64,000 nt of DNA, taken from Escherichia phage vB_EcoM-Ro111lw. A program made the position numbers and the translations under genes. The stretch lies in sequence record MH571750.1. One strand, given 5' to 3'. Of the stretch, positions 13,303 to 54,500 are shown piece by piece (the stretch's first letter is position 1; every line of letters starts with the position of its first letter). Below the pieces are notes generated by a model that was given only the letters and a program-made list of their open reading frames with translations, had not been told where the DNA came from and did not search any database.

Positions 13303-14478
13303 ATGGCAGTAGGTGAAATTCAAATTAGTGCCTTGCCACAAGCGGCCTTACCAATTGATTTGAGTGATATCTTCCATCTTAAGCAAGGTGTTGAGGATAA
13401 AAGATGTACGCTTGAACAGTTGTTAGCACCTCACGCATCTTTGAGGAATAACCCTCATGGTGTAACGAAATCGCAAGTAGGTCTTGATAATGTTATTAAC
13501 TCTCTTCAATTAGTTGCAGCTAATAACTTGTCAGACATTGTAAATGTTGCTGAGGCAAGAGCAAATCTACAAATTATGTCGTCAGAGGAAGTGAATAGCT
13601 TAATTCAGCAACATATTGACGATAAAAGCAACCCACACAACACAACGAAAGCACAGGTTGGTTTAAGTAATGTTCAGAACTGGACAACATCCAATCTGTA
13701 CAATGAAGATGCTGATAAGTATGCTACAGCTAGAGCAGTGAATAATCTATATAAAGCTATCCAAGCATCATATCCAGTGGGTACTATTCATCTATCTGTT
13801 AACTCTGCTAACCCATCCACTTACTTGCTTTGTGGAGGTACTTGGGAGTTAGTTTCTAAAGGTAGAGCACTAGTTGGTTATGATACAGATTCTAGACCTG
13901 TTGGTTCAACGTTTGGTTCTCAGACTGTAGCATTAACAAATAATAATTTACCAGCGCATACTCACTCTATCTATCTAACAGGTGGTGGTCATACACACTC
14001 TGCAAGTGTATCTATCTCTAGTTTTGATTATGGTTCAAAAAGTACATCAACTTTTGATTACGGTACAAAAACGACTAATAGTGCTGGTGCTCACACTCAC
14101 ACGTTTAGTGGCACAACAAGCAATGCTGGTAACCACAACCATAGAGTCCCTATGAGGGGTAATGATAGGGGTGGCACAAACGCTATTACTGCATCTGCTG
14201 ATGCTGGTGTTGGTAATGCTATGTATACTGATTTAGCTGGTGCTCACACCCATAGCTTCTCAGGTACAACTGCATCATCTGGTGCTCATAGCCATACTGT
14301 CGCAATTGGTGCTCACAGCCACACTGTTAATATTGGTTCGCACAGTCATACAGGCACTGTTACTGTTTCTAGCTCTGAGCATACACACTCAGGGACATCT
14401 GGTTCTGTTGGTGGTGGTCAAGCTTTCAGTGTTGAGCAGCCATCTTTTGTAGTGTATGTGTGGCAGAGAACAGCTTAA
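13303..14478 (+). CDS. Tail fiber protein with T4-type fibre repeats and His-rich (HxH) C-terminal tip
   Basis: N-terminal repeats NPHGVTKSQVGLDNV / NPHNTTKAQVGLSNV (phage tail-fibre repeat pattern); C-terminal run of HTHS/HSHT motifs like metal-binding fibre tips; C-terminus AFSV...W.RTA shared with next ORF. Confidence 0.7.
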   Translation: MAVGEIQISALPQAALPIDLSDIFHLKQGVEDKRCTLEQLLAPHASLRNNPHGVTKSQVGLDNVINSLQLVAANNLSDIVNVAEARANLQIMSSEEVNSLIQQHIDDKSNPHNTTKAQVGLSNVQNWTTSNLYNEDADKYATARAVNNLYKAIQASYPVGTIHLSVNSANPSTYLLCGGTWELVSKGRALVGYDTDSRPVGSTFGSQTVALTNNNLPAHTHSIYLTGGGHTHSASVSISSFDYGSKSTSTFDYGTKTTNSAGAHTHTFSGTTSNAGNHNHRVPMRGNDRGGTNAITASADAGVGNAMYTDLAGAHTHSFSGTTASSGAHSHTVAIGAHSHTVNIGSHSHTGTVTVSSSEHTHSGTSGSVGGGQAFSVEQPSFVVYVWQRTA

Positions 14479-14488
14479 TTTCTTTACA

Positions 14489-14508
14489 GGGGCTTTGTAG
14501 CCCCTTTT
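14489..14508 (+). terminator. Terminator hairpin between the two fiber genes
   Basis: GGGGCT-ttgt-AGCCCC followed by TTTT; preceded by TTTACA as in the type-B cassettes. Confidence 0.5.
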
Positions 14509-14524
14509 AAGAGGAAAACTTATA

Positions 14525-16885
14525 ATGGCAGATTACAAATTGAGTCAATTAAACTCAATCGACACAATTAGTTCAGAAGACCTATTGCACATCAGAGTTA
14601 AGAAAAGACCTGAAATGTTGGGTGACGAAGACCGTAGAATGACCTATCAAGACTTCTTAGCTTCCTTCAAACTAGAAAGGTTTGTTCAGATTGCTGGGAG
14701 CAATATGACGGGGGATTTAGGTATTGTCAAGTTACTTTACGGTGGCAAGGCTGTATTTGACCCTACAGGTTCTTCTGAAATTACTATTGGGGATGTTTTA
14801 AAGACTTTTAAACTTAACGCAAATGGTCTTAAACTAACTATTGCAGATGCTTCAAGGTCAGCAACTGTTTATCATACTCTGAATAAGCCAAGTCCTAATG
14901 AACTTGGGATGAGAACTAATGAAGAAAATGATGCAAGATATGCAAGACTTGCTGTTACAAATAACTTCAGTATTAGGCAAGCAATTGTAACTGATGGTGA
15001 GCAGTTAACTCTTAAGAAGGCAACCAATGCAGGTGCTTCATATATTCAAGGTAGAGATGCTAATAACCAGCAAACTTGGTATGTTGGACAGGGGACTTCA
15101 AACAGTACCAATGTTTATTTGTACAATCATGCTACTGGCTCAATGTTAACCCTTGATGCAACAGCAGCATTTAATAAGTCACTTAGAATCTCCGGACAGA
15201 TTCAACCTTCAGATTTCTCTAACTTAGATGCTAGATACTTCACTCAGACAGTTGCTAATCAGAGATTTGCACAGTTAGCTGGCAATAATACTTTTACAGG
15301 TGCTAACACTTTCACTAACCTTGTTGCTAAGAAGAATGCTAATGCTATTACTTTACAGAATACTGATGCAAGTACAGCACTTTACATTCTCGGTAAGAAG
15401 TCTGATGGAACAAATAAATGGTATGTTGGTACAGATTCTGACGAGACACGTCTAAACATTTATAACTACCTTACAGGTTCACAGATTTCACTAGGTACTA
15501 CTATTGGTATCAATAAGACTGTGCAAATCACTGGACAAGTCCAACCTTCAGATTGGGCTAATATTGACTCTAGATATATTCCGGCAGCAACATTAAGTAC
15601 GATTGCAAGAACTAATGCTGCTAATACATTCTCTGCACAACAGGTTATCAACTCTGATGGCGAAGCTCTTGCGTTACAAGCAAAAACTGTAACGTCATTG
15701 TTTATCAGAGGTAAATCTGCTGATGGAACTAGCAAGTGGTATGTTGGGAATGGTGATGCCAGCGACATCTTAAACCTGTATAACTACAAGACAGGTAAAG
15801 GGCTTAACATTGGTTCATCATTCGAAATGAATGCAACTTTAACAATCACTGGGCAAGTTCAACCTTCAGATTTCTCTAACTTAGATGCTAGATATTACAC
15901 GCAATCTACCGCAAACTCTAGGTATATGCTTGCTTATTCTTCTGGCACTGGTACAGAGGTAGGTGATAGTGATGGAATTGCTTGGAATGCTAAAACTGGT
16001 CTGTATAATGTTATAACGAAATCTGGTGGTTCAACACAACTGGTCTACCATATGTATCAGGGTAGCAGTTCTACACCAGCAGCTCAGTTAAAATTTAACT
16101 ACAACAATGGCGGTTTTTGGTATAGGTCAGCAAGAGACGGTTATGGTTTTGAGAGTGCTTGGTCTAAAATCTATACAGACAAAGATAAACCAACCCCTTC
16201 AGACATCGGTGCATACACTAAAGCTGAAACTGACCAGAAGATTGCAGATGCAATTAGTGACTCTACAGACCTGAATAAAATCTATCCAGTAGGGATTGTG
16301 ACGTGGTTTAACAGTAATGTCAACCCTAACACAGCACTTCCTGGGTTAACTTGGACGTACCTGAACAATGGTGTTGGCAGAACTATTAGAATTGCAGCAG
16401 CAAATGGTTCAGATGTTGCTACAACTGGTGGTTCAGACTCTGTAACATTAGCTGTTGGTAACTTGCCTTCACACACGCATAGTTTCTCTGCTACCACTTC
16501 ATCATTTGATTATGGTACTAAGACTTCTAGCACAACTGGTAACCATAACCACAACAGAGGGACTATGGAGATTACTGGTACAGTGGGTTACTTTAGAAGT
16601 GACTCTAGCAGCTTCTACACAGCAAGTGGTGCATTCACACTTGGTAGCTCAACTGCTTCTAAGGGTTTTACTGGCTCTAACTTCACTAATGGTATCCCTG
16701 CTAACTTTAATGCGTCAAGAACTTGGTCTGGTGTAACGAATACGACAGGTAACCACAGCCACACTGTTGGTATTGGTGCTCACAGCCACACAGTTAGTGG
16801 TAACACAGGTGGTACTGGTTCTGGTTCAGCATTTAGTGTTACTAACCAGTTCTATAAGTTAATGGCTTGGGTGAGAACTGCTTAG
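14525..16885 (+). CDS. Tail fiber protein (long), three internal ~110-aa repeats, same His-rich C-terminal module
   Basis: Three tandem repeats ending (I/V)QPSD(F/W)(S/A)N(L/I)D(A/S)RY; C-terminal HTHS/HNHN/HSHT motifs and ending AFSV...W.RTA paralogous to 13303..14478. Confidence 0.7.
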   Translation: MADYKLSQLNSIDTISSEDLLHIRVKKRPEMLGDEDRRMTYQDFLASFKLERFVQIAGSNMTGDLGIVKLLYGGKAVFDPTGSSEITIGDVLKTFKLNANGLKLTIADASRSATVYHTLNKPSPNELGMRTNEENDARYARLAVTNNFSIRQAIVTDGEQLTLKKATNAGASYIQGRDANNQQTWYVGQGTSNSTNVYLYNHATGSMLTLDATAAFNKSLRISGQIQPSDFSNLDARYFTQTVANQRFAQLAGNNTFTGANTFTNLVAKKNANAITLQNTDASTALYILGKKSDGTNKWYVGTDSDETRLNIYNYLTGSQISLGTTIGINKTVQITGQVQPSDWANIDSRYIPAATLSTIARTNAANTFSAQQVINSDGEALALQAKTVTSLFIRGKSADGTSKWYVGNGDASDILNLYNYKTGKGLNIGSSFEMNATLTITGQVQPSDFSNLDARYYTQSTANSRYMLAYSSGTGTEVGDSDGIAWNAKTGLYNVITKSGGSTQLVYHMYQGSSSTPAAQLKFNYNNGGFWYRSARDGYGFESAWSKIYTDKDKPTPSDIGAYTKAETDQKIADAISDSTDLNKIYPVGIVTWFNSNVNPNTALPGLTWTYLNNGVGRTIRIAAANGSDVATTGGSDSVTLAVGNLPSHTHSFSATTSSFDYGTKTSSTTGNHNHNRGTMEITGTVGYFRSDSSSFYTASGAFTLGSSTASKGFTGSNFTNGIPANFNASRTWSGVTNTTGNHSHTVGIGAHSHTVSGNTGGTGSGSAFSVTNQFYKLMAWVRTA
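15201..15237 (+). repeat. 37-bp direct DNA repeat inside fiber gene (copy 1; partner near 15858-15894)
   Basis: ttcaaccttcagatttctctaacttagatgctagata occurs twice about 660 bp apart within 14525..16885. Confidence 0.6.
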
Positions 16886-17566: not shown

Positions 17567-18466
17567 TTACTTGCCTACTGACAGAGGTGCTTCAATCTTT
17601 CCTGCATGTTGGTAGTTGTTAATGCCACCAATAAAATCACTTGCAGTAAGATGTTTCAGGTCACTTAAAGTATTAAGTGGTAGACCAATCTCAAAAGTTG
17701 GTGCATGGAACTCTTCATTGTTCATCAGTTCATAAACCTGTTTCATATGGTTCTGATAAATCTGAGTATCTCCAAAGACACCTATCAAGTACCGTGGAGT
17801 GTATCCAGTCATCTTACAAAGAACTTCTAAGATGAAACCATAAGACGCAATGTTAAATGGAAGTCCTAAAAAGGTGTCTACAGAACGCTGATACCATTGC
17901 AAATCCACTTCACCTTCATTAGTGATATAAATCTGAAACAGAACATGACAAGGTGCTAAAGCCATTGAGTTTGCTGCAATATCTGCTGCATTCCAAGCAT
18001 TAACAAGCATGTAACGGTCTGTGATATCACCCTTCATCTTCGTTACTAAGGTCTCTAGTTGGTCTACAACACAACCATTATGACCTTCAAAGTTTCTCCA
18101 CTGAACCCCATAGATTCTCCCACCTGCATCATCTAACCAATCTTGTTCAGAAGAATAATTAGAGCTTAACCAGCGTTTAAAATCATCTGACCAGATAGTC
18201 CAGCGTTCCCCGTCATTTTCATCCCAAGTACGGTAACGAAGTTCACCCAGCTTATTCTCACCATTCAGGAACCATAAAGCCTCCCCAATAACTTGCCGTG
18301 TAAACACCTGTTTAGATGTTAAGAGCGGGAAACCAGTCCTCATATCAAAACGAAACTGAGGTGGAGCAAAAGCAGAGATAACATCTCCAGTTCTTGTAGT
18401 ACGCAGTTCACCAACGGATAAAACATGGTTCAGGATATTTTTGTAACTTGTATCTGCTTGTGACAT
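17567..18466 (-). CDS. thyA: Thymidylate synthase
   Basis: Active-site region ...LAPCHVLFQ... and conserved thymidylate synthase blocks (FLGLPFNIASY); 299 aa. Confidence 0.9.
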   Translation of the reverse strand: MSQADTSYKNILNHVLSVGELRTTRTGDVISAFAPPQFRFDMRTGFPLLTSKQVFTRQVIGEALWFLNGENKLGELRYRTWDENDGERWTIWSDDFKRWLSSNYSSEQDWLDDAGGRIYGVQWRNFEGHNGCVVDQLETLVTKMKGDITDRYMLVNAWNAADIAANSMALAPCHVLFQIYITNEGEVDLQWYQRSVDTFLGLPFNIASYGFILEVLCKMTGYTPRYLIGVFGDTQIYQNHMKQVYELMNNEEFHAPTFEIGLPLNTLSDLKHLTASDFIGGINNYQHAGKIEAPLSVGK

Positions 18467-18467
18467 A

Positions 18468-19013
18468 TCAAAAGTGTCCTTTTACTTGTGGAACATAAAT
18501 TTCAAAAGTTGCTTTACCATCCTCTGATGGTTTTGACTGTACCTTTGTAAACACACGGTTATCATACAGCTTCTCAAAGAAGTTTTCAAAAGGTAAATGC
18601 ACAGTGGCCTCTTCAGTAACTTTATGGAAAACAGTATGGAACACCACACTAGCATACGGTAAAGCATTGACAAGGATACCTGCACCACCAATTACAAAGA
18701 CATCTTCATCAATAGAGCTATCAAGATACTTCAAAAATGCTCCAAATGACTCTTTACTGGCTTTAGCATACATTATCTCATCTTTGCCAAAATCTATGCC
18801 TAAGTATGGTACAGAATTTGTTAAGATTAGGTTTGCACGTTCTGGTAAAGGTTTACTCCCCAGAGTCTTGAAAGTCTCGTTACCCATCACTACTAAGTTG
18901 TTTTTAGTGAGTCTCTTAAACTCTTGCATGTCCTGTTTATGTCGAGGCCACGGCATACCAGTTGGAGTACCAAACTCACCATTTTCACCACTTGCAAAGA
19001 TTAATTTAATCAT
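18468..19013 (-). CDS. folA: Dihydrofolate reductase
   Basis: N-terminal DHFR signature (IFA...NG..G....PW, LVVMGNETF, RANLILT); adjacent to thyA. Confidence 0.8.
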   Translation of the reverse strand: MIKLIFASGENGEFGTPTGMPWPRHKQDMQEFKRLTKNNLVVMGNETFKTLGSKPLPERANLILTNSVPYLGIDFGKDEIMYAKASKESFGAFLKYLDSSIDEDVFVIGGAGILVNALPYASVVFHTVFHKVTEEATVHLPFENFFEKLYDNRVFTKVQSKPSEDGKATFEIYVPQVKGHF

Positions 19014-19270
19014 TTTGTAAATCCTTTCTTAATGAACCAGTTGATAACATTCTTCACCGCTTTATTGCTATGATAGATTAAGTGTGGTGCAGGTTGGTAT
19101 GAACCATAAGCCCAGAAAGCAATAATTTCACTACACCCTGTACACCTTGTACTCTCTTCAGCAATATGACCGTTGACTATTTCACTTACCTCACCTTGTA
19201 AGTCTGTGCATCCACAATGTGGACAACGGATAGGTGCTCCGTCAGACTCATAGCAGTGTTCAATTTTCAT
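19010..19270 (-). CDS. Small Cys-rich (zinc-ribbon-like) protein
   Basis: CPHCGC...C.GC pattern; 86 aa. Confidence 0.45.
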   Translation of the reverse strand: MKIEHCYESDGAPIRCPHCGCTDLQGEVSEIVNGHIAEESTRCTGCSEIIAFWAYGSYQPAPHLIYHSNKAVKNVINWFIKKGFTK

Positions 19271-19786
19271 TTATTTAACCTCAAAAACTGGTTCAAGAAC
19301 CAATATAAAATCTACACAGTCATCTTCTTCATCCAGAATACCATCAAAGTTCTTAGGAACGAAGTCGAAGAGGCTCATCACAAAGCAGTCAGAAGTAACC
19401 CTGATAGTTCCTCCAATGTTCTCTACAGTTAACACTGTACGACTTTCTTTTACCTCTCGCAAAAGATTACTCACAAAGTCATCTAAGAAGTACTTCATCA
19501 GTGATTTAAAGCCTTTAGGGTAATCTGTACCAGAGTATGTTTCAATCTGAGGTACAAGCTTAACATTTATACTAGTCTTTGTTAAGAATGTGTTAGAGAA
19601 CATACTATCAGGTAACTTACAAACAATCTTTCCAGTACCTTCATGTTCAATCTCAACAAAACCAGCTTCATCGCCACATGTAACTATTTTAAAAGATGCT
19701 TCATTCTCACACTGTGAAGCCATAAACTTTTTAAGCATCACTTTAAGGAAATCTGCATGAGCATCTTGTAAGTAGACATCAATCAT
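19271..19786 (-). CDS. Hypothetical protein
   Basis: 171-aa ORF, ATG start, in minus-strand operon. Confidence 0.5.
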   Translation of the reverse strand: MIDVYLQDAHADFLKVMLKKFMASQCENEASFKIVTCGDEAGFVEIEHEGTGKIVCKLPDSMFSNTFLTKTSINVKLVPQIETYSGTDYPKGFKSLMKYFLDDFVSNLLREVKESRTVLTVENIGGTIRVTSDCFVMSLFDFVPKNFDGILDEEDDCVDFILVLEPVFEVK

Positions 19787-19799
19787 AGTTAATCACCTA

Positions 19800-20159
19800 T
19801 TATGGGAACAGACACTTAATGTCATCATTTTTGAAAACGAAGCTTGTGTAATTGTGACCATCAACATCCAGCCAAACAGCCTGAACATCTACACCATCAA
19901 GATTGTGGTAAAGCTCTTTGATGAAGTGGTCTTTTACAATCTGGCTACTAGTTGTTTCCAGCTTAATGTTTGAGATTGCTGAACCTACAGCCATATAACC
20001 CATGACACGTTTCTTCTCAGTATGCTTAATCTTACCATCTTTATAAGCCATAATGAGATTGGAAAGAATCTTCACACCATAATACTTTTCAAGGTGAGTA
20101 GGTACACCATAAAAGCCTAATGCGAAGTTTTCAGAGTGGATAATGTTTTCACGTTTCAT
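19800..20159 (-). CDS. Hypothetical protein
   Basis: 119-aa ORF, ATG start. Confidence 0.5.
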   Translation of the reverse strand: MKRENIIHSENFALGFYGVPTHLEKYYGVKILSNLIMAYKDGKIKHTEKKRVMGYMAVGSAISNIKLETTSSQIVKDHFIKELYHNLDGVDVQAVWLDVDGHNYTSFVFKNDDIKCLFP

Positions 20160-20160
20160 A

Positions 20161-20460
20161 TTAATCTGCCAGCCTTAAATTAAAATTAACACCAAATTTT
20201 TCGCATACTTCCAACATATACTCAAGGGAGACATTACCAGTGAGGTGGATTATGTTGGATACGCGAGCCTGAGAGATACCACAAATTTTAGCAACTTGCT
20301 CTTGAGAAAGACCTCTGGATTTAATCTCTCTCTTAAAACGATGTGCAACGAAGTCTCTCATTTCGTCTACATCCATTGGACAAATATAACTCTCCATTTC
20401 AGCCTCTCTGTCAGCCTCCCAATCATCTTGTGGAGCATAAGGGTCAAAAGTCTCATTCAT
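20161..20460 (-). CDS. HTH (XRE-family-like) DNA-binding protein; start moved to ATG (MNETF...)
   Basis: C-terminal helix-turn-helix LSQEQVAKICGISQARVSNIIHL; ORF-track start is a TTG, in-frame ATG at 20460. Confidence 0.6.
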   Translation of the reverse strand: MNETFDPYAPQDDWEADREAEMESYICPMDVDEMRDFVAHRFKREIKSRGLSQEQVAKICGISQARVSNIIHLTGNVSLEYMLEVCEKFGVNFNLRLAD

Positions 20461-20665
20461 CTTTCTTCTTCCGTTTGCGTGAAGTGTCAATCAATGAATC
20501 TATGTTTGTAGCCCTAACCTTTTCACGTTCATCGTTAAGATAATCATCAAGAGCCTTTTCAATCTGTGAATCATCTTGACAGATAACTGTAAAGACTGTA
20601 AAGCCGTCTGTATCATCAATTATCTTACCATAACCACTTCTAGGATGTAACTTTTTAAGAGCCAT
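20453..20665 (-). CDS. Hypothetical protein
   Basis: 70-aa ORF with ATG start; basic C-terminus. Confidence 0.4.
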   Translation of the reverse strand: MALKKLHPRSGYGKIIDDTDGFTVFTVICQDDSQIEKALDDYLNDEREKVRATNIDSLIDTSRKRKKKDE

Positions 20666-20666
20666 A

Positions 20667-21050
20667 TCAAATACCTGTGCAGCTTCTGTTTTCTAAGAAA
20701 TACTCAACACCATACATAGCTTTTTGCATCAAATCTTCTTTAAACTGAATACGATGATTGAGCATAGTCTGTACATCAATATCATCAGGGTGCTTCTCTT
20801 TAATATTTGCAGATTGCAGGAAATACTCTGCAAGAACACGATACTGATAGTCAGTTACCTTATCAGTCATCTCTGTTAAAGACTCTTCAGAGATTGGTTT
20901 AAGTAACTCACCATTAGTCAAAGCAACACCTTTAACAATCTGACAAGTGTCTTCTGGAACACCTGATAAGTCCACATTTGGGAGTTCTGTTGCATTGACT
21001 GGTAAATTCATTGACATAACCATTGCAGCAGCTAATAAAATCTTTTTCAT
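20667..21050 (-). CDS. Secreted (signal-peptide) protein of unknown function
   Basis: N-terminal MKKILLAAAMVMSMNLPVNA signal-peptide-like sequence. Confidence 0.55.
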   Translation of the reverse strand: MKKILLAAAMVMSMNLPVNATELPNVDLSGVPEDTCQIVKGVALTNGELLKPISEESLTEMTDKVTDYQYRVLAEYFLQSANIKEKHPDDIDVQTMLNHRIQFKEDLMQKAMYGVEYFLENRSCTGI

Positions 21051-21481
21051 AATGACCTCAAAGTTATATTAAATTTTGTATTACATTGAGCATAAAAATA
21101 AGCTATAACACCTGACTTGTCAACAGATTTTATAGCTTATTTGGCAGATTTTTTATAAGGCTACTGCCATCCTTCCATACCAGACCACACCATGCAAAAC
21201 CAGACTTCACATCGCCTTGCCGTGCAATACATTACTTAAAAACCCTCTTAGAAGACTCTTAAGTGATGCTGGTGAGTACCTGTTGGTTTATGCTGCTCAG
21301 TATACTCACCAAATTTTCTATGTCAACAACTTTATATAAAAGTCCTGATAGCTATATGTGTTACAAAACAGAAGATTGTGAACAAGACACCCATTGCAAA
21401 GGATGTGTTCAAAAGTTTACTTGTTATGTAAGACAATACAAAGACAACTAATGCAAACAGAATGATTGTGCTTAACATAGT

Positions 21482-22585
21482 TTACTCATAATCCCTAATA
21501 ACTAGCCCAACAGGAAACTGTAAAGAACCCTTACGAGTCATCTTCTGGAACTGAACCGTTAAAGGCTTCCCAATAAACTCTTCAGGATGCTCAGCAAGAT
21601 ACTGTTTCTTCTCATGAGTAGTCTTCCATGAGACATCTACAAAGACGTTAGGAAGAGTCTCTACAACGAACTTGCCATGACCACGCTTATCAGTCTTTAC
21701 ACCAGTCACTTTAAACTCTTCAGTGTGCATCTTCTTGTGCTTAATCAAGAAGTATGAACGGTGACAGCACTCATAGAAGGAGTCTTCAGAGATTGAACGG
21801 TACATTGCACCTTCAAACTTAGCTTCAACCCACTTATCATGAGCTTCATCAAACTCTTCCCAAGAATTTACACGACGAGACTTAACAGGAACAACTTTAC
21901 AGCCGTCTCTAAAGTCATTCAATGGTGAAGTCTCAATAATATCTCTACGCTCAGGCCACGTCTTAGTACTGTCACAGATATCATACCAGTAAAACTTAAG
22001 TAGATGACGGTCAGGATTGTCTTCATTTTTAATCATAGAGACAATATCTTCTAAGTCCCACCCATGAGCATAAATCTCACCATCAAATTCATCAACATCT
22101 TTGTGGAGCCTTAACATTGCCATAATGTCAGGTATTAGCTCAGTGGGGATTTTATAAACAGTATTCTCACGAGAGTATGCTGTAAATACACTACCAATGC
22201 TTAAGTGTCTTGAAATTCTACAACGGACACCATCAAGTTTTGGTTGAGCGTCAGCAGGGAACTTCAGATACTTTGCATGACTAACCTTTGCAGCATCATG
22301 AGCAAGCTGTACACCTACCTTCTCAGTATTCTGTGCAGACTCTTTTGTGTAAGCATAACCTTTGCGGTCAACTTGTTTTTTATACTTAGCAGCAACTTCA
22401 AAGAGAGCTTGTTGTTCAGCGTTACGCTCATTCTTTTTACCGATGTTTTTAGGTTCTGCTGTATACTCTTCAAACATCATCTTGCCATTTTCTTTGCCAT
22501 ACGTGGTAACAACTTTGTCACCTACAGCGACACATGACCAGACGTTAAAAGAGCCATCTTTATTTTGTTTGTATAGAATTGTCAT
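21482..22585 (-). CDS. ATP-dependent DNA ligase
   Basis: Adenylation motif I PKLDGVRC (KxDG); 367 aa, T7-ligase-like size. Confidence 0.75.
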   Translation of the reverse strand: MTILYKQNKDGSFNVWSCVAVGDKVVTTYGKENGKMMFEEYTAEPKNIGKKNERNAEQQALFEVAAKYKKQVDRKGYAYTKESAQNTEKVGVQLAHDAAKVSHAKYLKFPADAQPKLDGVRCRISRHLSIGSVFTAYSRENTVYKIPTELIPDIMAMLRLHKDVDEFDGEIYAHGWDLEDIVSMIKNEDNPDRHLLKFYWYDICDSTKTWPERRDIIETSPLNDFRDGCKVVPVKSRRVNSWEEFDEAHDKWVEAKFEGAMYRSISEDSFYECCHRSYFLIKHKKMHTEEFKVTGVKTDKRGHGKFVVETLPNVFVDVSWKTTHEKKQYLAEHPEEFIGKPLTVQFQKMTRKGSLQFPVGLVIRDYE

Positions 22586-22590
22586 TCAAA

Positions 22591-23115
22591 TTACCTTAGC
22601 ATGTGTGATTTTACTGGAATAAAGATACCAAATTGTGAGACTGCTAAATCAGATAGTGACATACACTGTTCAGGTAAGTACACAAAAACCCCTGTGTAGA
22701 AGTCTATAAAAGAACCATCATCTTGTTTGCAGGCTAGTTTTCCATAACCATAGTTGTACAACTTTAATGAACCATCATCATACTTTAAGTAGTTCTTGAA
22801 CTGAACATTAAAAGCATATTCAGAGAACCTTGTGTACAGGTCATAAAGCAACCCAATACTGTCGTCGACTATTGCTACACCAAACTTTTTACAAATATCT
22901 ACATAGTTTTTGTATAATTTATTATGATTTTCAGGTGTTGCAAAGTTTGTATACCAATGTTCTAAGATAGATAACTTAATTGGCTGATTTTTAGAATATT
23001 CTAATACCTTCATGTCATACCAAGATTTCCTAAGTCTGACATCATCTAGCCTTAAATTTTGAGACACTTCACGGAAGTTTTTGATGATTATATTTCTGCG
23101 CCTATTGTCAATCAT
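22591..23115 (-). CDS. Hypothetical protein (start moved to in-frame ATG)
   Basis: ORF-track start is TTG; ATG at MIDNRRRN. Confidence 0.45.
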   Translation of the reverse strand: MIDNRRRNIIIKNFREVSQNLRLDDVRLRKSWYDMKVLEYSKNQPIKLSILEHWYTNFATPENHNKLYKNYVDICKKFGVAIVDDSIGLLYDLYTRFSEYAFNVQFKNYLKYDDGSLKLYNYGYGKLACKQDDGSFIDFYTGVFVYLPEQCMSLSDLAVSQFGIFIPVKSHMLR

Positions 23116-23117
23116 AA

Positions 23118-23309
23118 TCAGCCCTCTGAGTGATACCAAGTATTACAAGCATTACATGCGTAAAGCTCTAAGTCATTTTTATCTGGTTTATGAAAACAGT
23201 TTGCTCCGCAGTGGCAACGAAACGGCTTTCCACCAACTGTCAGGATGAAGGATTGAACCTTTCCATCTGGAGTTCGTACAGCATTTTTATGCTTATCTTC
23301 TTTGTTCAT
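23118..23309 (-). CDS. Small zinc-binding protein (CxxC...CxxC)
   Basis: C.C....C..C pattern in 63 aa. Confidence 0.4.
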   Translation of the reverse strand: MNKEDKHKNAVRTPDGKVQSFILTVGGKPFRCHCGANCFHKPDKNDLELYACNACNTWYHSEG

Positions 23310-23512
23310 TTTCTCTTACCACCAATCTCTACGTCAATAACTTGAACATCACCAGCAACATCAAACTTATGAATGATGCTTTCCACAGTGTAAGTCCAAC
23401 CCTCGATTCGAACCAACTCACCTTCTCGTGGGACGATTGGGTTACGTTGAGCTACGGTTGTAGTGGAGTGAACAACATCATAACAGTAGATATAGTTTAC
23501 TAGGACTTCCAT
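23306..23512 (-). CDS. Hypothetical protein
   Basis: 68 aa, ATG start, 4-nt overlap. Confidence 0.45.
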   Translation of the reverse strand: MEVLVNYIYCYDVVHSTTTVAQRNPIVPREGELVRIEGWTYTVESIIHKFDVAGDVQVIDVEIGGKRK

Positions 23513-23522
23513 CGTAAAAACC

Positions 23523-23780
23523 TCACTCTATAACAGTAGTGTGTGATTGACCATTTTTGCCATAGCTATAAGATGTTGTTGTTTGAGAGTTTGGACATCT
23601 GACAACAACAATATCTCTGCTTATTGCATCCCCATTTAACTTATAGACTTTGCAATCTTGCATCTCTGGTGGGAGACTATAAGAAGCATTTTTGTCCTCA
23701 TAAGAGGGGTTGCAGCCAGATAGAAAAAGTACTCCAAGTGCAACCATTGCTTTCACACAACTCTTAACCTTATTGTTCAC
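23523..23780 (-). CDS. Small lipoprotein (possible receptor-blocking / superinfection-exclusion type)
   Basis: Basic n-region, hydrophobic core and lipobox LSGC; mature part about 60 aa; GTG start with GAGAGG RBS (alternative ATG 33 nt downstream). Confidence 0.5.
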   Translation of the reverse strand: MNNKVKSCVKAMVALGVLFLSGCNPSYEDKNASYSLPPEMQDCKVYKLNGDAISRDIVVVRCPNSQTTTSYSYGKNGQSHTTVIE

Positions 23781-23916
23781 GATAGTCTACCTCTCTGTAT
23801 GTTTTTAAATAGTGAGTGATGAGTTCTGGTAATTCACTACGTTTAACGTTTGAACGAAGAAGTGTCCAGTCAAAACCTTTACCAACCCTTCCCCAGAGAC
23901 TGTACATTTTCTTCAT
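23770..23916 (-). CDS. Possible small ORF (48 aa) not in the ORF track
   Basis: ATG overlapping upstream stop (ATGA); fills an otherwise empty 130-bp gap; below the 60-aa track cutoff. Confidence 0.25.
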   Translation of the reverse strand: MKKMYSLWGRVGKGFDWTLLRSNVKRSELPELITHYLKTYREVDYREQ

Positions 23917-24131
23917 AGCAACTCCAGAATATCAATACGTTCACCTTTAAGTACTCCAGTACGGTCTTTTGCAATCTTACCGTCAACGATAAGGATGTGT
24001 GTAGACCTTAAAGCGTCGTTGTTAAAGGTTTTTACGAACTTGCTAGGCATGACTACAATGGACATCTCCTGAATTAACTCTGGAGTGTAGCAGTTATCAT
24101 GAAGTTGCTGAATAACGTCTGCAAGTGTCAT
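23913..24131 (-). CDS. Hypothetical protein (start moved to ATG)
   Basis: Track start is TTG; ATG at MTLADV overlaps upstream stop. Confidence 0.45.
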   Translation of the reverse strand: MTLADVIQQLHDNCYTPELIQEMSIVVMPSKFVKTFNNDALRSTHILIVDGKIAKDRTGVLKGERIDILELL

Positions 24132-24337
24132 TTTTGATGTCTCCAATATTCAATATCTACAAGTTCTTGTGCAATACTTTTCAGATTACCTTTCAAGAAA
24201 ACCTTCTCAGAACCTGAAAGAGATGAATTGTCAATTAACCTGTTCATTCTCTCAAACAACTTCTGCTTACGATTTTTGATAGTCTCCTTTGAAGCACCTT
24301 TCATCATCGCTGCATGGGTTCTTCCACGATGGCTCAT
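24128..24337 (-). CDS. Hypothetical basic protein
   Basis: 69 aa, ATG start. Confidence 0.45.
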   Translation of the reverse strand: MSHRGRTHAAMMKGASKETIKNRKQKLFERMNRLIDNSSLSGSEKVFLKGNLKSIAQELVDIEYWRHQK

Positions 24338-24398
24338 AAGCCCTCCTATATAAGATATAGTATAAGGTACTCTTCCATGAGCACCTTGTCAATACTAA

Positions 24399-27098
24399 TT
24401 AGTGTACTTCAAGCCAGCTTTTACCAACCTTACCAGTACCTGTTACAAGTGTTTCTTTCTTAAGACCTAAGTTCTTAGAAGCTTGTCCATAATACCAGTC
24501 AGTAACTGCTTTCACTTCTGCCGTCATACTTTCTGGACATTCCCAGCTTGTTTCATCGTGATATGCGCAGAGCAAACGAGCACCAATAGCTGGTTTACGA
24601 CCATTTAACTTCATCAAACCTTCGTCAATCATACGACGACAAGCAAGGTTAATTGCCTCATTTTGAATCTGACTTTCCGAACCCATAAGCAAATAATTCA
24701 ATAACTTATGTGGAGATTTACACCACAACCAAGCTCCAGCAACCTTTACGAAGCCCCCTTTAGAGATTGCAGCAGTCTTACCAAACACCTCTTCAAGTGC
24801 CTTTTTAGTCGCTTTGTAGTCAGCTTCCAAGTCATCCAGCAGCTTCTTAATTTTAGGCAAACGAATAAAGTAAGTCTGTTTGGTCAGTGCACCTTCCTGA
24901 GTAGTTGCAGCTTTAATCGTCTTAGCAAACTTCTCATCACCTGCACCGAACAGCAGTGCATAGATACCATTCTTAGCTTTCTTACGACCCTTGCTAATCT
25001 CATGGAGAAGGTTCTCATCCTGAGTAGCTCGACAAGTCAAGATATCCTGCTCATCATTCAAGCTAAAGTAAATACTGTTCAGTGTGTGTGCATCAGTCCC
25101 TGAATAGACAACGTACAGGTCATTCTCAGAGTCATAGCGAAGGTACTTATCAATCTCTGGGTTGAGGTACTCATCAAAGTGTTTGCAGTAATAGCGTCCA
25201 TCCTCTTGACGAATAAACTCAATCTCTTCTTTACCTTGCGTTACCGCTTTGGTGAAGTCTTTGTCACCCATAAAGTTACAAAGGAGAACTAGCTGGGCTG
25301 AGTTCATGTCTACAGAGACAACGTTAGTACCTTCCTCACAAATCCACACTGCCCTCATTGGTTCCCCATAGACAGCAGCACCAGACGGTACGTTTACAAT
25401 ACCATATTGTGTCATACGTCCAGTTGAAGTACCAAATACCATTGCACCAGCACTAAGGCGACCATCAGGACGAATCTGGTTTAGCCAACCTTTTTCATCA
25501 TCCTTTGAGTTCTCAATGGTTCTGCGTCGGTGCATCAAAGTATAGTACTTAGCAATCTTCTGTCCAAGCTCACCTTCAATCGTATCATAAGAAGATTCAG
25601 TAAGTTTTGGTGAAGTACGGATTAAACAAGGCTCAAGCAAATCTGTGTACTTCTTAACAGACCAGTTATGCTCAATGTACTGGACACCTTCATGTTCAAC
25701 ATAACTCAAGCCACACCGTTCAACCATCTCCTGCCACTTAGGATGCTTGGTAATCATCTTTTTGTTGTCTTTGAAACGACAAACCTTAACAGGACGACCA
25801 TCTGAGTCTTTCTTGTAGTTCCAGTCATCTGGAATCCAACCAACTGATTTCAAGTAATCTTTAACAACTGCTACCTGAGTCATACGAGAAACTTCGAACT
25901 CAATTGGTGTATATGGTGCATCAATCAAACCTGTGTAGCGACTTGACTCAAGTCCAAAGTGGTTAACAACATGGCTGTTATAGTACTTCACAGTCTTAAC
26001 TGTTTTTACTGGCTTCCAGTCTTTGCATTTCTTACCAATCTTTGCATTCAACTCATTGCAAATTGCACGAGCATCCTTCATTGCTACAAAACCTTCCTTG
26101 TACTCTTCACCAGTTACAGAGTTGGTTGGCGTATAGCAATTTCTCTTTTCAATGTTAAAAATCTTTGTAGTTGGCTTACCAAATGGTTTGATTTCATAAG
26201 TCTGCATCTCACCATTACGTACCTGCTGACGATACTTTGTCTTAGGGTACTTGGTAATCCTCTTCAGTCCATCTGCATGACCAAATGTTTCAACATACTC
26301 ATTCCAAGCCTTTGCAAACTCTTCACCAGTTACTTTACCTTTGGTCTTAATAGTTGGTGGTAGATGTGGTTCAACCTCTGAAGCAAGCTCATTAGTCAAC
26401 TTGTCAAGTTCCTTTACATGGAACTCCATAAGTTCTTTATCAGCTTTCCAACCATTGATAGCTTGCTGGCTCATCCAGAAAGATGTCTCTTTAGCTCGCA
26501 TGTAGGTTTCATAAGTGTCTATGCCACACTTCTTAAGCTTGAGATACTCGTTATCAAGTGCCCGTTTAGTTTTGGCGTTAATACGGATATCTTCTACAAC
26601 ACGAGTGAAGATTTCTGCATTCCACACACCCCAATGTTCAATCTCTGGCTTACGAACACCAACACGAGCACCCCATGCAGCCAAACCATGAGCACCTTTA
26701 TAACCCTTTGGAGTTGGTCTATCCATCCACTGAACACGAGACTGGATAAGAGAATCCTGAAAGAAATTACTCCACGGCTTACATTTTGGATTATCAAAGT
26801 TCCATAAATCCGGTGCAATGTGATTGAAGACCCACCAGTCATAACCGAGGCCGTTATGGATACAAAGTCGTTTTGCCTTTAACGCAAACTCAACACCTTC
26901 ACGTAAACCACCCTTAATGTACTTAGTGTACTTGTGACCGAGGATAGGCTCATCTGTAAAGACCCATACAGGTGGCTCTTCATCGTCAGATTTATAGTCT
27001 GCAAAGGCCATTACGTGAACTTTAGTGAACTCAAGGAGTAAACCATCAGTTTCTGTATCACCAACCAAATGTAAGTTTTTAAAATCTACGTTTTCCAT
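24399..27098 (-). CDS. DNA polymerase, family A with 3'-5' exonuclease domain (T7 gp5-like); start set to MENVDF ATG
   Basis: Exo I motif DTETDGL near N-terminus; YHDE motif near C-terminus; about 900 aa; AGAGGGAG RBS before the ATG at 27098. Confidence 0.85.
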   Translation of the reverse strand: MENVDFKNLHLVGDTETDGLLLEFTKVHVMAFADYKSDDEEPPVWVFTDEPILGHKYTKYIKGGLREGVEFALKAKRLCIHNGLGYDWWVFNHIAPDLWNFDNPKCKPWSNFFQDSLIQSRVQWMDRPTPKGYKGAHGLAAWGARVGVRKPEIEHWGVWNAEIFTRVVEDIRINAKTKRALDNEYLKLKKCGIDTYETYMRAKETSFWMSQQAINGWKADKELMEFHVKELDKLTNELASEVEPHLPPTIKTKGKVTGEEFAKAWNEYVETFGHADGLKRITKYPKTKYRQQVRNGEMQTYEIKPFGKPTTKIFNIEKRNCYTPTNSVTGEEYKEGFVAMKDARAICNELNAKIGKKCKDWKPVKTVKTVKYYNSHVVNHFGLESSRYTGLIDAPYTPIEFEVSRMTQVAVVKDYLKSVGWIPDDWNYKKDSDGRPVKVCRFKDNKKMITKHPKWQEMVERCGLSYVEHEGVQYIEHNWSVKKYTDLLEPCLIRTSPKLTESSYDTIEGELGQKIAKYYTLMHRRRTIENSKDDEKGWLNQIRPDGRLSAGAMVFGTSTGRMTQYGIVNVPSGAAVYGEPMRAVWICEEGTNVVSVDMNSAQLVLLCNFMGDKDFTKAVTQGKEEIEFIRQEDGRYYCKHFDEYLNPEIDKYLRYDSENDLYVVYSGTDAHTLNSIYFSLNDEQDILTCRATQDENLLHEISKGRKKAKNGIYALLFGAGDEKFAKTIKAATTQEGALTKQTYFIRLPKIKKLLDDLEADYKATKKALEEVFGKTAAISKGGFVKVAGAWLWCKSPHKLLNYLLMGSESQIQNEAINLACRRMIDEGLMKLNGRKPAIGARLLCAYHDETSWECPESMTAEVKAVTDWYYGQASKNLGLKKETLVTGTGKVGKSWLEVH

Positions 27099-27270
27099 TT
27101 TTACTCCCTCTAAAATCATTAACCTCATACATTACTGCAAAAAATTATAAAAAGCAAGTTGACAATGTACTTGACAAGGTGTTAATCTTTGCGAAGTGGG
27201 TTTTTACTTAAAAGGTTACTTAACAGTTTAACTATACAGATACTTTAAAACTCTTAAAAGATTATTTAAT

Positions 27271-52402: not shown

Positions 52403-52951
52403 ATGAAGAAATTGATTCTAGGTTTGTGCTTAATGTTTACAGCACACTTATCTTATGCAGTTGACTGCCCAGAGCTATCAATTAGCCAAAAAGTGAACAT
52501 GTTAAAAGCTTACCAGTATGGTGAGAATAACATGGGTAAAGGTTGGGGTATCACTCTAGCAGCTATAGCCTTACAAGAGTCAGAGTTAGGTCTGAAGGTA
52601 GAAAATAAAAAGACCCATGACTATGGTATCTTCCAGAATCACTTGAAGACTGTTGTAAAGCGTAACAAAATTAGTCCTAATGTTGCTAAAAAGAAACTCT
52701 TAAAAGATTTTGACTATGCTGCGAAGGAAACGCACAAAGAACTTGAGTTTTGGACAAAGGTGCATGGTCAGCCAAAGTCAAAGAAGACTTTACAAAAAGT
52801 TTTAGCATCATATAATGCTGGGTATTCGTACAGAATCCCTAAAGCTAAGAAGTATTCTCAAGATGTCTATAACAACATGAAAGTTATTGCTCAATGTGAA
52901 TTTGCAACAAACATTTCTAAGGTAAACCATGAAAAAATTAAAAAAGTCTGA
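52403..52951 (+). CDS. Secreted lytic transglycosylase (SLT-domain) protein
   Basis: Signal peptide MKKLILGLCLMFTAHLSYA; SLT-like motifs AIALQESEL (catalytic Glu), GIFQ, SYNAG. Confidence 0.55.
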   Translation: MKKLILGLCLMFTAHLSYAVDCPELSISQKVNMLKAYQYGENNMGKGWGITLAAIALQESELGLKVENKKTHDYGIFQNHLKTVVKRNKISPNVAKKKLLKDFDYAAKETHKELEFWTKVHGQPKSKKTLQKVLASYNAGYSYRIPKAKKYSQDVYNNMKVIAQCEFATNISKVNHEKIKKV

Positions 52952-54152: not shown

Positions 54153-54500
54153 ATGACATTTAAAGAGTTCTGTCAAGCTACTTTCATAGTTGTTTTCTTA
54201 GTTGGGGCAGGTGTCTGGGGAGGATACTCTTACAGAGACTACCAAGTTGCTGAAACTGAGCTAAACAATGAGAAGCTGATAAGTGTTGCTAAAGATGCTT
54301 ATCAGGAAGGATTAGCTACACTGAGCACCAATTACAAAAATGATTTGAAAGATGTGCTTGCTAAGAATAAGCACACAAAAGAGGTACTAACGTATGAAAA
54401 AACTAAGCCAGAGTTTTATAATGTTTGTGTTACTGATAATTATGTCAGGGTGTTCAACGAACAAAGTGAACAGTACATTCAAAAACTCCCAAGTAAGTGA
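54153..54500 (+). CDS. i-spanin-like protein (N-terminal TM anchor + periplasmic domain)
   Basis: N-terminal TM (FIVVFLVGAGVWGGY) then charged helical region; an out-of-frame lipoprotein ORF overlaps its 3' end. Confidence 0.4.
   Translation: MTFKEFCQATFIVVFLVGAGVWGGYSYRDYQVAETELNNEKLISVAKDAYQEGLATLSTNYKNDLKDVLAKNKHTKEVLTYEKTKPEFYNVCVTDNYVRVFNEQSEQYIQKLPSK

What the first reader, a model, noticed from the sequence alone, without database searches (positions are those of the whole stretch)
20667..23780. Secreted protein and small lipoprotein among early/replication genes: possible superinfection-exclusion or receptor-masking functions
An 85-aa lipoprotein (lipobox LSGC) and a 127-aa signal-peptide protein are embedded in the minus-strand early operon. 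Small phage lipoproteins in this position can block the phage's own receptor (lytic conversion); a periplasmic protein could inhibit host envelope enzymes.
Basis: inference. Interest (0 to 1): 0.4.

Follow-up and report, generated by a model that had tools for sequence, protein, structure and literature searches.

The report
Two exported accessory proteins, Felix O1-like phage
The interval holds two real but unrelated exported proteins of a Felix O1-like phage, a small lipoprotein from a family shared by many unrelated virulent phages and a lineage-specific periplasmic helical protein; both have unknown function, and the lipoprotein is unlikely to be a T5-style receptor blocker.

Summary
The window is a Felixounavirus genome. 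ORF A (20667-21050, minus strand, 127 aa) has a Sec signal peptide with a conserved A-x-A cleavage site. ORF B (23523-23780, minus strand, 85 aa, GTG start) has the lipobox LSGC. Both are under purifying selection (dN/dS 0.05-0.09).

The two genes are independent:
- **A** is a confident three-helix bundle with a conserved Cys pair. It occurs only in Ounavirinae and has no informative sequence or fold relative. Its SUSP1 ortholog was dispensable in a published knock-down screen.
- **B** belongs to an uncharacterised phage lipoprotein family (phrog_902). The lipid-attachment Cys and two further Cys are invariant in 46 sequences. Matches occur in 583 phage records: Ounavirinae, T5-like vibriophages, Vequintavirinae, jumbo phages and Acinetobacter phages. 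B is always a stand-alone gene among small early genes and never lies beside a tail-fibre gene.

B shows no detectable homology to T5 Llp or Rtp45. It is not the o-spanin, because an overlapping spanin pair lies at 54153-54663. Felixounaviruses use the LPS core as receptor, so receptor masking is poorly supported. An envelope-directed accessory role remains plausible but untested; post-adsorption exclusion, envelope or lysis control, and counter-defence are all open. Interest is moderate to low.

The parts
20667..21050 (-). Gene A: a 127-aa exported protein (Felix01p159 family, phrog_4332). The signal peptide is aa 1-20 (20991-21050) and the mature periplasmic domain is a three-helix bundle of about 107 aa. 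The conserved Cys codons are C36 (20943-20945) and C124 (20679-20681).
   Evidence: ORF. phrog_4332 E=1.1e-65. AF2 pLDDT 86.1 with helices 31-45, 55-86 and 93-121. Conserved A20, C36 and C124. Present in 258 phage records, all of Ounavirinae type. Only 5 clusters among 1.84 billion representative proteins. dN/dS 0.05-0.07.
21095..21142 (-). Promoter-like site for gene A (TTGACA-17-TATTTT, 21123-21095). It lies inside a 19-nt inverted repeat (21096-21114 / 21124-21142), a possible operator or weak terminator.
   Evidence: A promoter is annotated at the same place in phage ASO1A. The total promoter count in the region does not exceed chance (30 found versus 29 expected).
21299..21326 (-). The best sigma-70-like match in the region (TTGACA-16-TATACT, 11 of 12). 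It lies just downstream of the 48-aa membrane-protein ORF that follows the ligase gene.
   Evidence: The downstream intergenic RNA folds with z = -3.2 against shuffles.
21332..21478 (-). A 48-aa ORF with two hydrophobic segments, a candidate small inner-membrane protein, lying inside the finding's interval.
   Evidence: Translation. phrog_22006 E=6.7e-31. The membrane topology is read from the sequence and was not tested.
23523..23780 (-). Gene B: an 85-aa prolipoprotein (Felix01p170 family, phrog_902). The signal peptide is aa 1-22 (23715-23780), the lipobox LSGC is at 23712-23723, and the mature protein is 63 aa (23526-23714), beginning CNPSY. The invariant Cys codons are C43 (23652-23654) and C62 (23595-23597). 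The core motif is VVRCPNSQTTT.
   Evidence: AF2 gives a small beta protein at low confidence, pLDDT 61.8. dN/dS 0.08-0.09. tblastn matches in 583 phage records.

Best explanation
The interval contains two genuine, independently evolving accessory genes of a Felix O1-like myovirus. Their products leave the cytoplasm.

B is made as a prolipoprotein. The following steps are inferred from established lipoprotein biogenesis: it is acylated on Cys23 and cut by signal peptidase II. [quoted passage not shown] There a tether of about 13-20 residues holds a small beta domain of about 40 residues, closed by one disulfide (C43-C62), in the periplasm.

B belongs to a family of stand-alone lipoprotein genes that has spread horizontally among unrelated virulent phages of gamma-proteobacteria. 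My inference is that it binds a conserved periplasm-exposed host component rather than the phage's own receptor. The likely effect is to alter or protect the envelope of the infected cell. I consider exclusion of secondary infection after adsorption, or envelope and lysis control, the most likely benefits.

A is exported by Sec, cleaved after Ala20, and folds into a disulfide-stabilised three-helix bundle. It is restricted to Ounavirinae. It is the first gene of a unit that also encodes a Cro/CI-type regulator. It most likely acts as a periplasmic binding or inhibitor protein.

Shown: export signals, conservation, distribution, gene context, and the lack of homology to known exclusion lipoproteins. 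Inferred: localisation, the disulfides, early timing, and any function.
For: - **Identity of the window:** 259 Ounavirinae-type phage records match at 80-99% identity.
- **Signals and constraint:**
- **B family:** phrog_902 E=1.6e-17; 50 clusters found with a profile; 583 phage records, including 291 Vibrio and 17 Acinetobacter phages as well as Erwinia and Klebsiella phages.
- **B context:** it lies in arrays of small genes or in replication regions in a T5-like vibriophage, Certrevirus CB7 and two jumbo phages. It is the only gene shared among these contexts.
- **B is essentially phage-only:** a motif-based scan of 185,579 species' genomes gave one confirmed bacterial locus.
- **B is accessory:** SUSP1 lacks it and has a weakly Tad2-like gene in the same slot.
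- **A:** confident three-helix model. It is lineage-restricted with conserved synteny to the 70-aa gene and the HTH gene. Its SUSP1 ortholog AVU07_agp037 scored 'Not Fit' in the CRISPRi-ART screen (PMC11879866 supplement).
- **The spanin role is already filled** at 54153-54663.
Against: No experiment addresses either protein, and no partner or target was identified. The B model has low confidence (pLDDT 61.8), and its fold search gave only noise. Three-helix bundles are generic, so the lack of fold hits for A says little. Early expression is inferred only, and promoter-like sites are no more frequent than chance. The mixed +2 residues in the B family (D 16, N 13, others 16) mean that localisation may differ between members. 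The +2 rule is firmly established mainly for Enterobacterales. A general exclusion function is a prior, not a result.
Confidence: 0.5

Rival explanations
1. B is a lytic-conversion lipoprotein of the Llp, Cor or Rtp45 type. On this reading it binds the periplasmic face of the phage's own outer-membrane receptor and prevents adsorption of sister phages to infected cells and debris.
For: B is a small lipoprotein of 63 mature residues with a disulfide. Asn at +2 predicts outer-membrane sorting. It lies in a presumably early block. It is similar in size and general type to Llp and Rtp45 (PMC12685063).
Against: There is no homology to Llp or Rtp45 beyond the signal peptide, and no PHROG match other than the unannotated phrog_902. 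B is not adjacent to a tail-fibre or receptor-binding gene. The genus receptor is the LPS core, which cannot be plugged from the periplasm in the known allosteric way (PMC13196588). The family crosses phages with different hosts and receptors while keeping a highly conserved motif. A third of members have Asp at +2.
Confidence: 0.07
2. A, and possibly B, is a periplasmic inhibitor of a peptidoglycan hydrolase, analogous to T4 Spackle. The target could be the cell-wall-digesting enzyme of a superinfecting phage. It could also be the phage's own Sec-exported SLT-domain protein (52403-52951), held in check until lysis.
For: A is a small exported helical protein with a conserved loop (GEL.KP.S) and a Cys pair. 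The same genome encodes an SLT-domain protein with a signal peptide, annotated as 'putative lysin' in relatives. A is dispensable in the laboratory, as an exclusion factor would be.
Against: Spackle and other lysozyme inhibitors did not appear in the sequence or fold searches. There is no co-variation or adjacency with the SLT gene, which lies 31 kb away on the other strand. The idea is purely analogical.
Confidence: 0.15
3. A and/or B are counter-defence proteins that neutralise envelope-associated host or prophage immunity.
For: B occupies a swappable accessory slot that in SUSP1 holds a weakly Tad2-like gene (PF11195, E=4e-5, just under the cut-off). B spreads horizontally as a single gene. 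The one bacterial homolog sits next to an ABC-3C conflict-system gene. A is dispensable on a laboratory strain.
Against: To my knowledge (not checked here), no periplasmic anti-defence protein of this kind has been described. There were no PADLOC or other informative family hits. Sharing a slot is weak evidence.
Confidence: 0.13
4. B takes part in lysis, either as an o-spanin-like outer-membrane lipoprotein or as a lysis regulator.
For: It is a small outer-membrane lipoprotein, the same class as Rz1.
Against: An overlapping i-spanin/o-spanin pair is present elsewhere (54153-54500 and 54394-54663) and is annotated as such in relatives. B has no adjacent membrane-anchored partner. It lies in the replication block, not the lysis region. 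It has no C-terminal membrane segment, so it is not a unimolecular spanin.
Confidence: 0.05
5. The export signals are chance features of non-functional or mis-called ORFs.
For: B uses a GTG start, is left unannotated in some relatives such as adrianh, and rare frameshifted alleles exist (P0013, P0014).
Against: dN/dS is 0.05-0.09. The lipid-attachment Cys and two other Cys are invariant across 46 sequences down to 22% identity, while the signal-peptide sequence itself drifts. The cleavage site of A is conserved at 32-34% identity. Both match PHROG families over their full length.
Confidence: 0.02

Closest known systems
T5 Llp, the lytic-conversion lipoprotein that blocks FhuA (PDB 8a60, 7qjf)
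   Same: Both are small phage lipoproteins with a mature domain of about 60 residues, presumably disulfide-bonded, and both come from virulent phages. Llp is reported as an early protein (Decker 1994 title, cited in PMC11990801); early timing for B is inferred.
   Different: The mature domains show no detectable homology. The positions of the Cys residues differ: near the start and near the end of mature Llp, against the 43/62 pair in B (sequences). The llp gene sits beside the receptor-binding gene and its target is an outer-membrane protein (PMC9586334, PMC12685063). B is far from the tail fibres, and its phage uses the LPS core. Llp matched 34 phage records, all Escherichia or Salmonella phages, whereas B matched 583 records across several phage lineages.
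Rtp45, the superinfection-exclusion lipoprotein of phage Rtp that binds LptDE (PDB 9rps)
   Same: Both are small periplasmic lipoproteins of about 6-7 kDa with a disulfide.
   Different: Similarity is limited to the signal peptide. rtp45 lies directly next to rtp44 and the J-like fibre gene rtp43; bona fide receptor-binding proteins are encoded at this locus in small siphoviruses (PMC11990801). B does not lie near such genes.
Rz1-type o-spanins
   Same: Both are small lipoproteins predicted to sit in the outer membrane.
   Different: B has no overlapping or adjacent i-spanin and lies outside the lysis region. The genome has its own i-/o-spanin pair at 54153-54663.
T4 Spackle, a periplasmic inhibitor of the gp5 tail lysozyme (comparison for gene A; properties from my own knowledge)
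   Same: Both are small Sec-exported, mainly helical periplasmic proteins of virulent myoviruses. A's ortholog is non-essential in the laboratory.
   Different: There is no sequence or fold match. A is confined to Ounavirinae, and its function is untested.
phrog_902, with the pre-computed Pfam label PF16225 (DUF4884 from my memory)
   Same: B matches phrog_902 (E=1.6e-17). Nearly all database homologs carry the pre-computed label PF16225.
   Different: My own hmmscan of B and of all 46 aligned homologs against the local Pfam copy gave no PF16225 hit. The family has no known function in either resource.

Membership tests
T5 Llp family | Homology of the mature lipoprotein domain | tested here: not met
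   The profile of 46 B homologs finds no Llp chain in the PDB at E<=10, although 8a60_B and 7qjf_A are present. hhalign aligns only 34 columns, mostly signal peptide.
T5 Llp family | Lipoprotein signal peptide with a lipobox Cys | tested here: met
   LSGC at aa 20-23. The Cys is invariant in 46 homologs.
T5 Llp family | Gene adjacent to the receptor-binding protein gene | tested here: not met
   The tail-fibre genes are at 13303-16885 on the plus strand. B is at 23523-23780 on the minus strand, between the ligase and polymerase genes. The same holds in four other phage lineages.
T5 Llp family | Binds the periplasmic face of the phage's outer-membrane protein receptor and blocks adsorption | not testable with these tools
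   Literature only: Felixounavirus phages require the LPS core, not an outer-membrane protein (PMC13196588).
Rtp45 / small-siphovirus exclusion lipoproteins | Homology of the mature domain | tested here: not met
   hhalign aligns 20 columns of signal peptide only. 9rps_D is in the PDB but is not hit by the B profile.
Cor superinfection-exclusion family | Match to the family profile | tested here: not met
   The PHROG scan at E<=0.01 returned only phrog_902 and a weak phrog_15147 hit, both listed as 'unknown function'. No Cor sequence was compared directly.
Two-component spanin, o-spanin subunit | Lipoprotein gene embedded in, overlapping or adjacent to an i-spanin gene in the lysis region | tested here: not met
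   The neighbours of B (48-aa and 68-aa ORFs) have no membrane anchor. A separate overlapping pair lies at 54153-54500 and 54394-54663 and is annotated i-/o-spanin in relatives.
phrog_902 (uncharacterised phage lipoproteins) | Significant match to the family profile | tested here: met
   E=1.6e-17; residues 2-83 match profile positions 2-87 of 118.
Pfam PF16225 | Match to the Pfam model | tested here: inconclusive
   The pre-computed label is on 48 of 50 homologs. It was not reproduced by hmmscan for B or for any of the 46 aligned members.
T4 Spackle (for gene A) | Sequence or fold similarity to Spackle | tested here: not met
   No PDB sequence hit. Foldseek against the PDB gave a best E of 0.47, to generic helical bundles. 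BFVD returned only A's own Sf13 ortholog.
phrog_4332 / Felix01p159 family (for gene A) | Full-length match and conserved position | tested here: met
   E=1.1e-65 over positions 1-126 of 126. The synteny ligase - A - 70-aa gene - HTH regulator - DHFR is kept in SUSP1 and Sf13.

The most novel reading that the evidence does not exclude
The B family (phrog_902) is a receptor-independent periplasmic effector. It has been passed horizontally among unrelated virulent phages because it acts on a conserved envelope component of gamma-proteobacteria, such as a peptidoglycan enzyme or a trans-envelope machine. It would then give generic protection against secondary infection or premature envelope failure. 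That would make it a class of phage lipoprotein distinct from both receptor-plugging exclusion lipoproteins and spanins.
Probability: 0.3. Interest if true: 0.6.

Novelty: new member of a known kind. Interest (0 to 1): 0.3.

Why it matters
Small exported phage proteins are among the few known ways in which a virulent phage remodels the cell envelope from within; Llp, Rtp45, Spackle and the spanins are examples. B is a compact, strongly conserved lipoprotein with matches in several hundred phage genomes from at least five unrelated lineages. It does not fit the logic of the known exclusion lipoproteins, which are linked to the receptor-binding gene. Finding its target could reveal a conserved envelope vulnerability. 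It could also show how therapeutic Felix O1-like phages interact with co-infecting phages. In themselves, though, the two genes are already-catalogued hypothetical proteins of a well-sequenced genus.

Tried and rejected
- **Curated family searches.** Pfam, NCBIfam and PADLOC scans of A, B and their neighbours gave only sub-threshold or signal-peptide-level hits.
- **The PF16225 label.** It is attached to the database homologs, but my own hmmscan did not reproduce it. I therefore did not file B under that family.
- **Fold search with the B model.** At pLDDT 61.8 it returned only noise.
- **Fold searches with the confident A model.** The PDB and the viral structure library gave only generic helical bundles and A's own ortholog. 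I found no support for a Spackle-like or antiholin-like assignment.
- **Rfam scan of 20400-24400.** Nothing reached the gathering score.
- **Search for a conserved partner gene of B.** An all-against-all comparison of five contexts found none.
- **Bacterial-genome scan.** The first attempt failed because the alignment was too diverse. A narrower alignment gave one locus.
- **Literature.** One search was too broad and unproductive. I found no paper describing a function for Felix01p159 or Felix01p170.
- **Is B the o-spanin?** I considered this and rejected it after finding the overlapping spanin pair.
Full report
**What the window is.** The 4.4 kb around the finding match 259 phage records at 80-99% identity. 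Nearly all are Felix O1-like myoviruses (Ounavirinae, mostly Felixounavirus) of Escherichia, Salmonella, Shigella and Citrobacter. The finding lies in a minus-strand block (17567-27128). This block carries the ATP-dependent DNA ligase (Pfam hit) and the genes that relatives annotate as thymidylate synthase, DHFR and DNA polymerase, plus many small ORFs. It is flanked by plus-strand tail and tail-fibre genes on one side and further plus-strand ORFs on the other.

**Checking the observation.** Both ORFs are present as described.

- ORF A (20667-21050, minus strand, 127 aa) follows a GAGG ribosome-binding site. It starts MKKILLAAAMVMSMNLPVNA|TE.
- Orthologs from Suspvirus and Mooglevirus share only 32-34% identity. 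They keep the MKK start, a hydrophobic core, Ala at -1 (VNA, ASA, AYA) and both Cys residues, C36 and C124.
- ORF B (23523-23780, minus strand, 85 aa) starts at the first possible start codon after an in-frame stop, a GTG, 9 nt downstream of GAGAGG. It reads MNNKVKSCVKAMVALGVLFLSGC|NPSY.
- In an alignment of 46 homologs down to 22% identity, the only invariant columns are the lipid-attachment Cys and two further Cys, C43 and C62. My lipobox pattern matched 45 of the 46; the remaining one reads ISSGC.
- The signal-peptide sequences themselves differ (MWKAVIALGVIFLAGC, MLKLLTLVMTILLVGC, MKRTRLILMAALMGFALAGC). That is the pattern expected when the signal, not its sequence, is selected.
- Pairwise dN/dS within the genus is 0.05-0.07 for A and 0.08-0.09 for B.
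- A lipobox scan of every ORF of at least 35 aa in the window returned only B, one other credible candidate, and one minus-strand ORF at 37808-37996 that lies inside a long plus-strand ORF and that I take to be spurious.

**The two genes are unrelated to each other.** They lie 2.5 kb apart. Between them are the ligase gene, a 48-aa membrane ORF, a 182-aa ORF found only in some relatives, and an intergenic region (21051-21331). That region holds the two best sigma-70-like matches in the block and a stably folding RNA, z = -3.2.

- A is found in 258 phage records, all of Ounavirinae type. A full HMMER pass over 1.84 billion representative proteins found only five clusters.
- B matches 583 phage records: about 196 at 60% identity or more, which I take to be Ounavirinae orthologs, plus 291 Vibrio phages and also Acinetobacter, Erwinia, Klebsiella, Pectobacterium, Pantoea and jumbo coliphages.
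- SUSP1 has A but not B.

**Gene A.**

- AlphaFold2, run on a seven-sequence alignment, gives a confident model: pLDDT 86.1 overall and above 95 for most of the mature domain. It has three helices, at 31-45, 55-86 and 93-121, after a disordered signal peptide.
- Conserved positions include the loop G47-E48-L49, K51-P52 and S54, as well as D63, D67, Y70-R71-V72 and Y76. C36 in helix 1 and C124 just after helix 3 are also conserved. This is consistent with a disulfide-stapled periplasmic bundle that has a binding surface.
- The PDB sequence search, Foldseek against the PDB and Foldseek against the viral structure library returned nothing informative. The only real hit was A's own Sf13 ortholog.
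- A is the first gene after the promoter-like site at 21123-21095, where ASO1A also annotates a promoter. It is followed in all three genera by a 70-aa gene and a Cro/CI-type HTH regulator.
- In the published CRISPRi-ART screen of SUSP1, the ortholog AVU07_agp037 (phrog_4332, equated there with Felix01p159) scored 'Not Fit'. It is therefore dispensable for growth on a laboratory strain (PMC11879866 supplement).

**Gene B.**

- It matches phrog_902, a family of unknown function, at E=1.6e-17.
- Database homologs carry a pre-computed PF16225 label. My own hmmscan did not reproduce it for B or for any of the 46 aligned homologs, so I treat the Pfam assignment as unconfirmed.
- The mature protein is 63 residues. 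It has a tether of about 13 residues, then a conserved Y-x-L-P-x-E-x-x-D-C segment, and then the core motif VVRCPNSQTTT-Y-x-GK.
- The AlphaFold2 model is a small beta meander of low confidence, pLDDT 61.8. Its fold search gave noise.

**Tests against the known kinds of small phage lipoprotein.**

1. *Llp and Rtp45.* Both are in the PDB copy. Neither is found by the B-family profile even at E<=10. Profile-sequence alignments cover only the signal peptide for Rtp45, and the signal peptide plus a short P-x-x-x-x-C-x-x-Y stretch for Llp.
2. *Gene position.* rtp45 sits directly beside rtp44 and the J-like fibre gene. The BASEL paper states that exclusion factors of small siphoviruses share the receptor-binding locus (PMC11990801). 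B is 6.6 kb from the tail-fibre genes, on the opposite strand.
   - In a T5-like vibriophage it lies in a run of small genes between an origin-binding protein gene and a helicase gene, about 3 kb upstream of the split NAD-dependent ligase genes.
   - In Certrevirus CB7 and in two jumbo phages it lies in runs of small hypothetical genes.
   - In an all-against-all comparison of these contexts, the lipoprotein is the only shared gene.
3. *Receptor.* Felixounavirus phages depend on the LPS core oligosaccharide, not an outer-membrane protein (PMC13196588). The allosteric plug mechanism of Llp and Rtp45 (PMC12685063) has no obvious substrate here.
4. *Sorting signal.* The +2 residue is Asp in 16 of 45 members, Asn in 13 and other residues in the rest. 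By the E. coli +2 rule (established knowledge), the Certrevirus-type proteins (CDNT, CDAK) would stay in the inner membrane and the Felix-type proteins (CNPS) would go to the outer membrane. That fits a target reachable from either membrane better than it fits the periplasmic rim of a beta-barrel.
5. *Spanins.* The window has a 115-aa ORF with an N-terminal membrane segment (54153-54500). It is overlapped by an 89-aa lipoprotein ORF (54394-54663). Relatives annotate these as i-spanin and o-spanin, so that role is already filled.

**Distribution and what it implies.** A motif-based scan of one genome for each of 185,579 bacterial and archaeal species confirmed a single homolog. It lies in a Hylemonella island next to an ABC-3C system gene. 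The family is therefore essentially phage-borne. Within Ounavirinae it is accessory: SUSP1 has a weakly Tad2-like gene in the same slot (PF11195, E=4e-5, 24.5 bits against a cut-off of 25). Rare frameshifted alleles exist (P0013, P0014). A single, strongly conserved, horizontally mobile gene with no phage partner suggests a conserved host target. I could not identify that target.

**Most likely mechanism, with its limits.** B is probably a lipid-anchored periplasmic binder of a conserved envelope component. A is probably a soluble periplasmic binder or inhibitor. Both are non-essential accessory factors that matter in competition or under stress. For B, I rank the possibilities as follows:

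- post-adsorption exclusion, or envelope and lysis control: most likely, about 0.3-0.4 together;
- counter-defence: about 0.13;
- receptor masking: about 0.07;
- a spanin-like role: about 0.05.

For A, the idea that it inhibits a cell-wall hydrolase is attractive. The target might be the genome's own signal-peptide-bearing SLT protein at 52403-52951. This remains unsupported analogy, at about 0.15.

**Novelty and verdict.** These are catalogued hypothetical proteins (Felix01p159 and Felix01p170) of a heavily sequenced genus. Its receptor-masking interpretation is not supported. Its broader suggestion of envelope-directed accessory functions remains open. The most useful outcome is the recognition that B belongs to a pan-lineage, stand-alone phage lipoprotein family. 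That family follows neither the exclusion-lipoprotein pattern nor the spanin pattern. Interest is moderate to low until a target is found.

Noticed in passing
window 21332-21478 (-): A 48-aa ORF with two hydrophobic segments lies directly after the ligase gene (phrog_22006, E=6.7e-31). It is a candidate small inner-membrane protein and so a third envelope-directed product inside the finding's interval. In phage adrianh, an ORF on the opposite strand is annotated at this position instead.
   Followed up: partly
window 21051-21331: This intergenic region holds the two best sigma-70-like sites of the block: 21326-21299 (11 of 12) and 21123-21095 (10 of 12). A 19-nt inverted repeat (21096-21114 / 21124-21142) brackets the -35 of the second site and might be an operator for the HTH regulator encoded downstream. 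The RNA fold has z = -3.2. In adrianh and SUSP1 the same gap holds two extra genes (146 aa and 195 aa, no Pfam hits), so it is an insertion hot spot.
   Followed up: partly
window 22591-23139 (-): A 182-aa ORF lies between the ligase gene and the zinc-ribbon ORF. It has no PHROG, Pfam or PADLOC match. It is present in adrianh but absent from ASO1A. Its absence probably explains why most relatives cover only 87-88% of the query (not checked directly), which would make it a variable insertion.
   Followed up: partly
window 52403-52951 (+): A 182-aa protein has a Sec-type signal peptide (MKKLILGLCLMFTAHLSYA) and a sub-threshold SLT lytic-transglycosylase match (E=9e-4, 19.2 bits against a cut-off of 21.3). 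Relatives annotate it 'putative lysin' or 'transglycosylase SLT domain-containing protein'. If it is an exported muralytic enzyme, it would need to be controlled before lysis.
   Followed up: partly
window 54153-54500 and 54394-54663 (+): An overlapping i-spanin-like ORF (N-terminal membrane segment) and an 89-aa lipoprotein ORF (lipobox MSGC). Several relatives annotate them as i-spanin and o-spanin, next to rIIB.
   Followed up: yes
L010:509-721 (-) (SUSP1 AVU07_agp043): At the position where Felixounavirus and Mooglevirus carry lipoprotein B, SUSP1 has a 70-aa protein with a borderline match to the Thoeris anti-defence Tad2-like domain (PF11195, E=4e-5). The slot looks like an exchangeable accessory-gene site.
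   Followed up: partly
L011:4004-4282 (+) (Hylemonella gracilis ATCC 19624): This was the only bacterial-genome homolog of B confirmed by the motif scan. It is a 92-aa lipoprotein with the same VVRCPNS motif. Nearby are an exported endonuclease/exonuclease/phosphatase-family protein and a protein with an ABC-3C CTD10 domain.
   Followed up: partly
L001:6295-6552 (-) and L001:5890-6081 (-) (phage adrianh): The intact B ortholog is not annotated in adrianh; a 100-aa ORF that overlaps its 3' end is annotated in its place. The 63-aa zinc-ribbon ORF is labelled 'DNA ligase' there, apparently a transferred mis-annotation.
   Followed up: yes
P0013, P0014 (database homologs of B): Two 64-aa variants share the first 44-47 residues of B and then diverge to a common unrelated tail (...RYCCCQMSKLSNNNIL). 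They look like frameshifted alleles, so the gene is occasionally lost.
   Followed up: no
GU169904.1, MG065664.1; L009 (MG969406.1): Records named 'Staphylococcus phage SA1' and 'Campylobacter phage A132' carry Felix O1-like sequence at 93-96% identity, which suggests contamination or mis-assignment. The 'UNVERIFIED' record GE_vB_B3 shows many frameshift-broken ORFs in this region.
   Followed up: no
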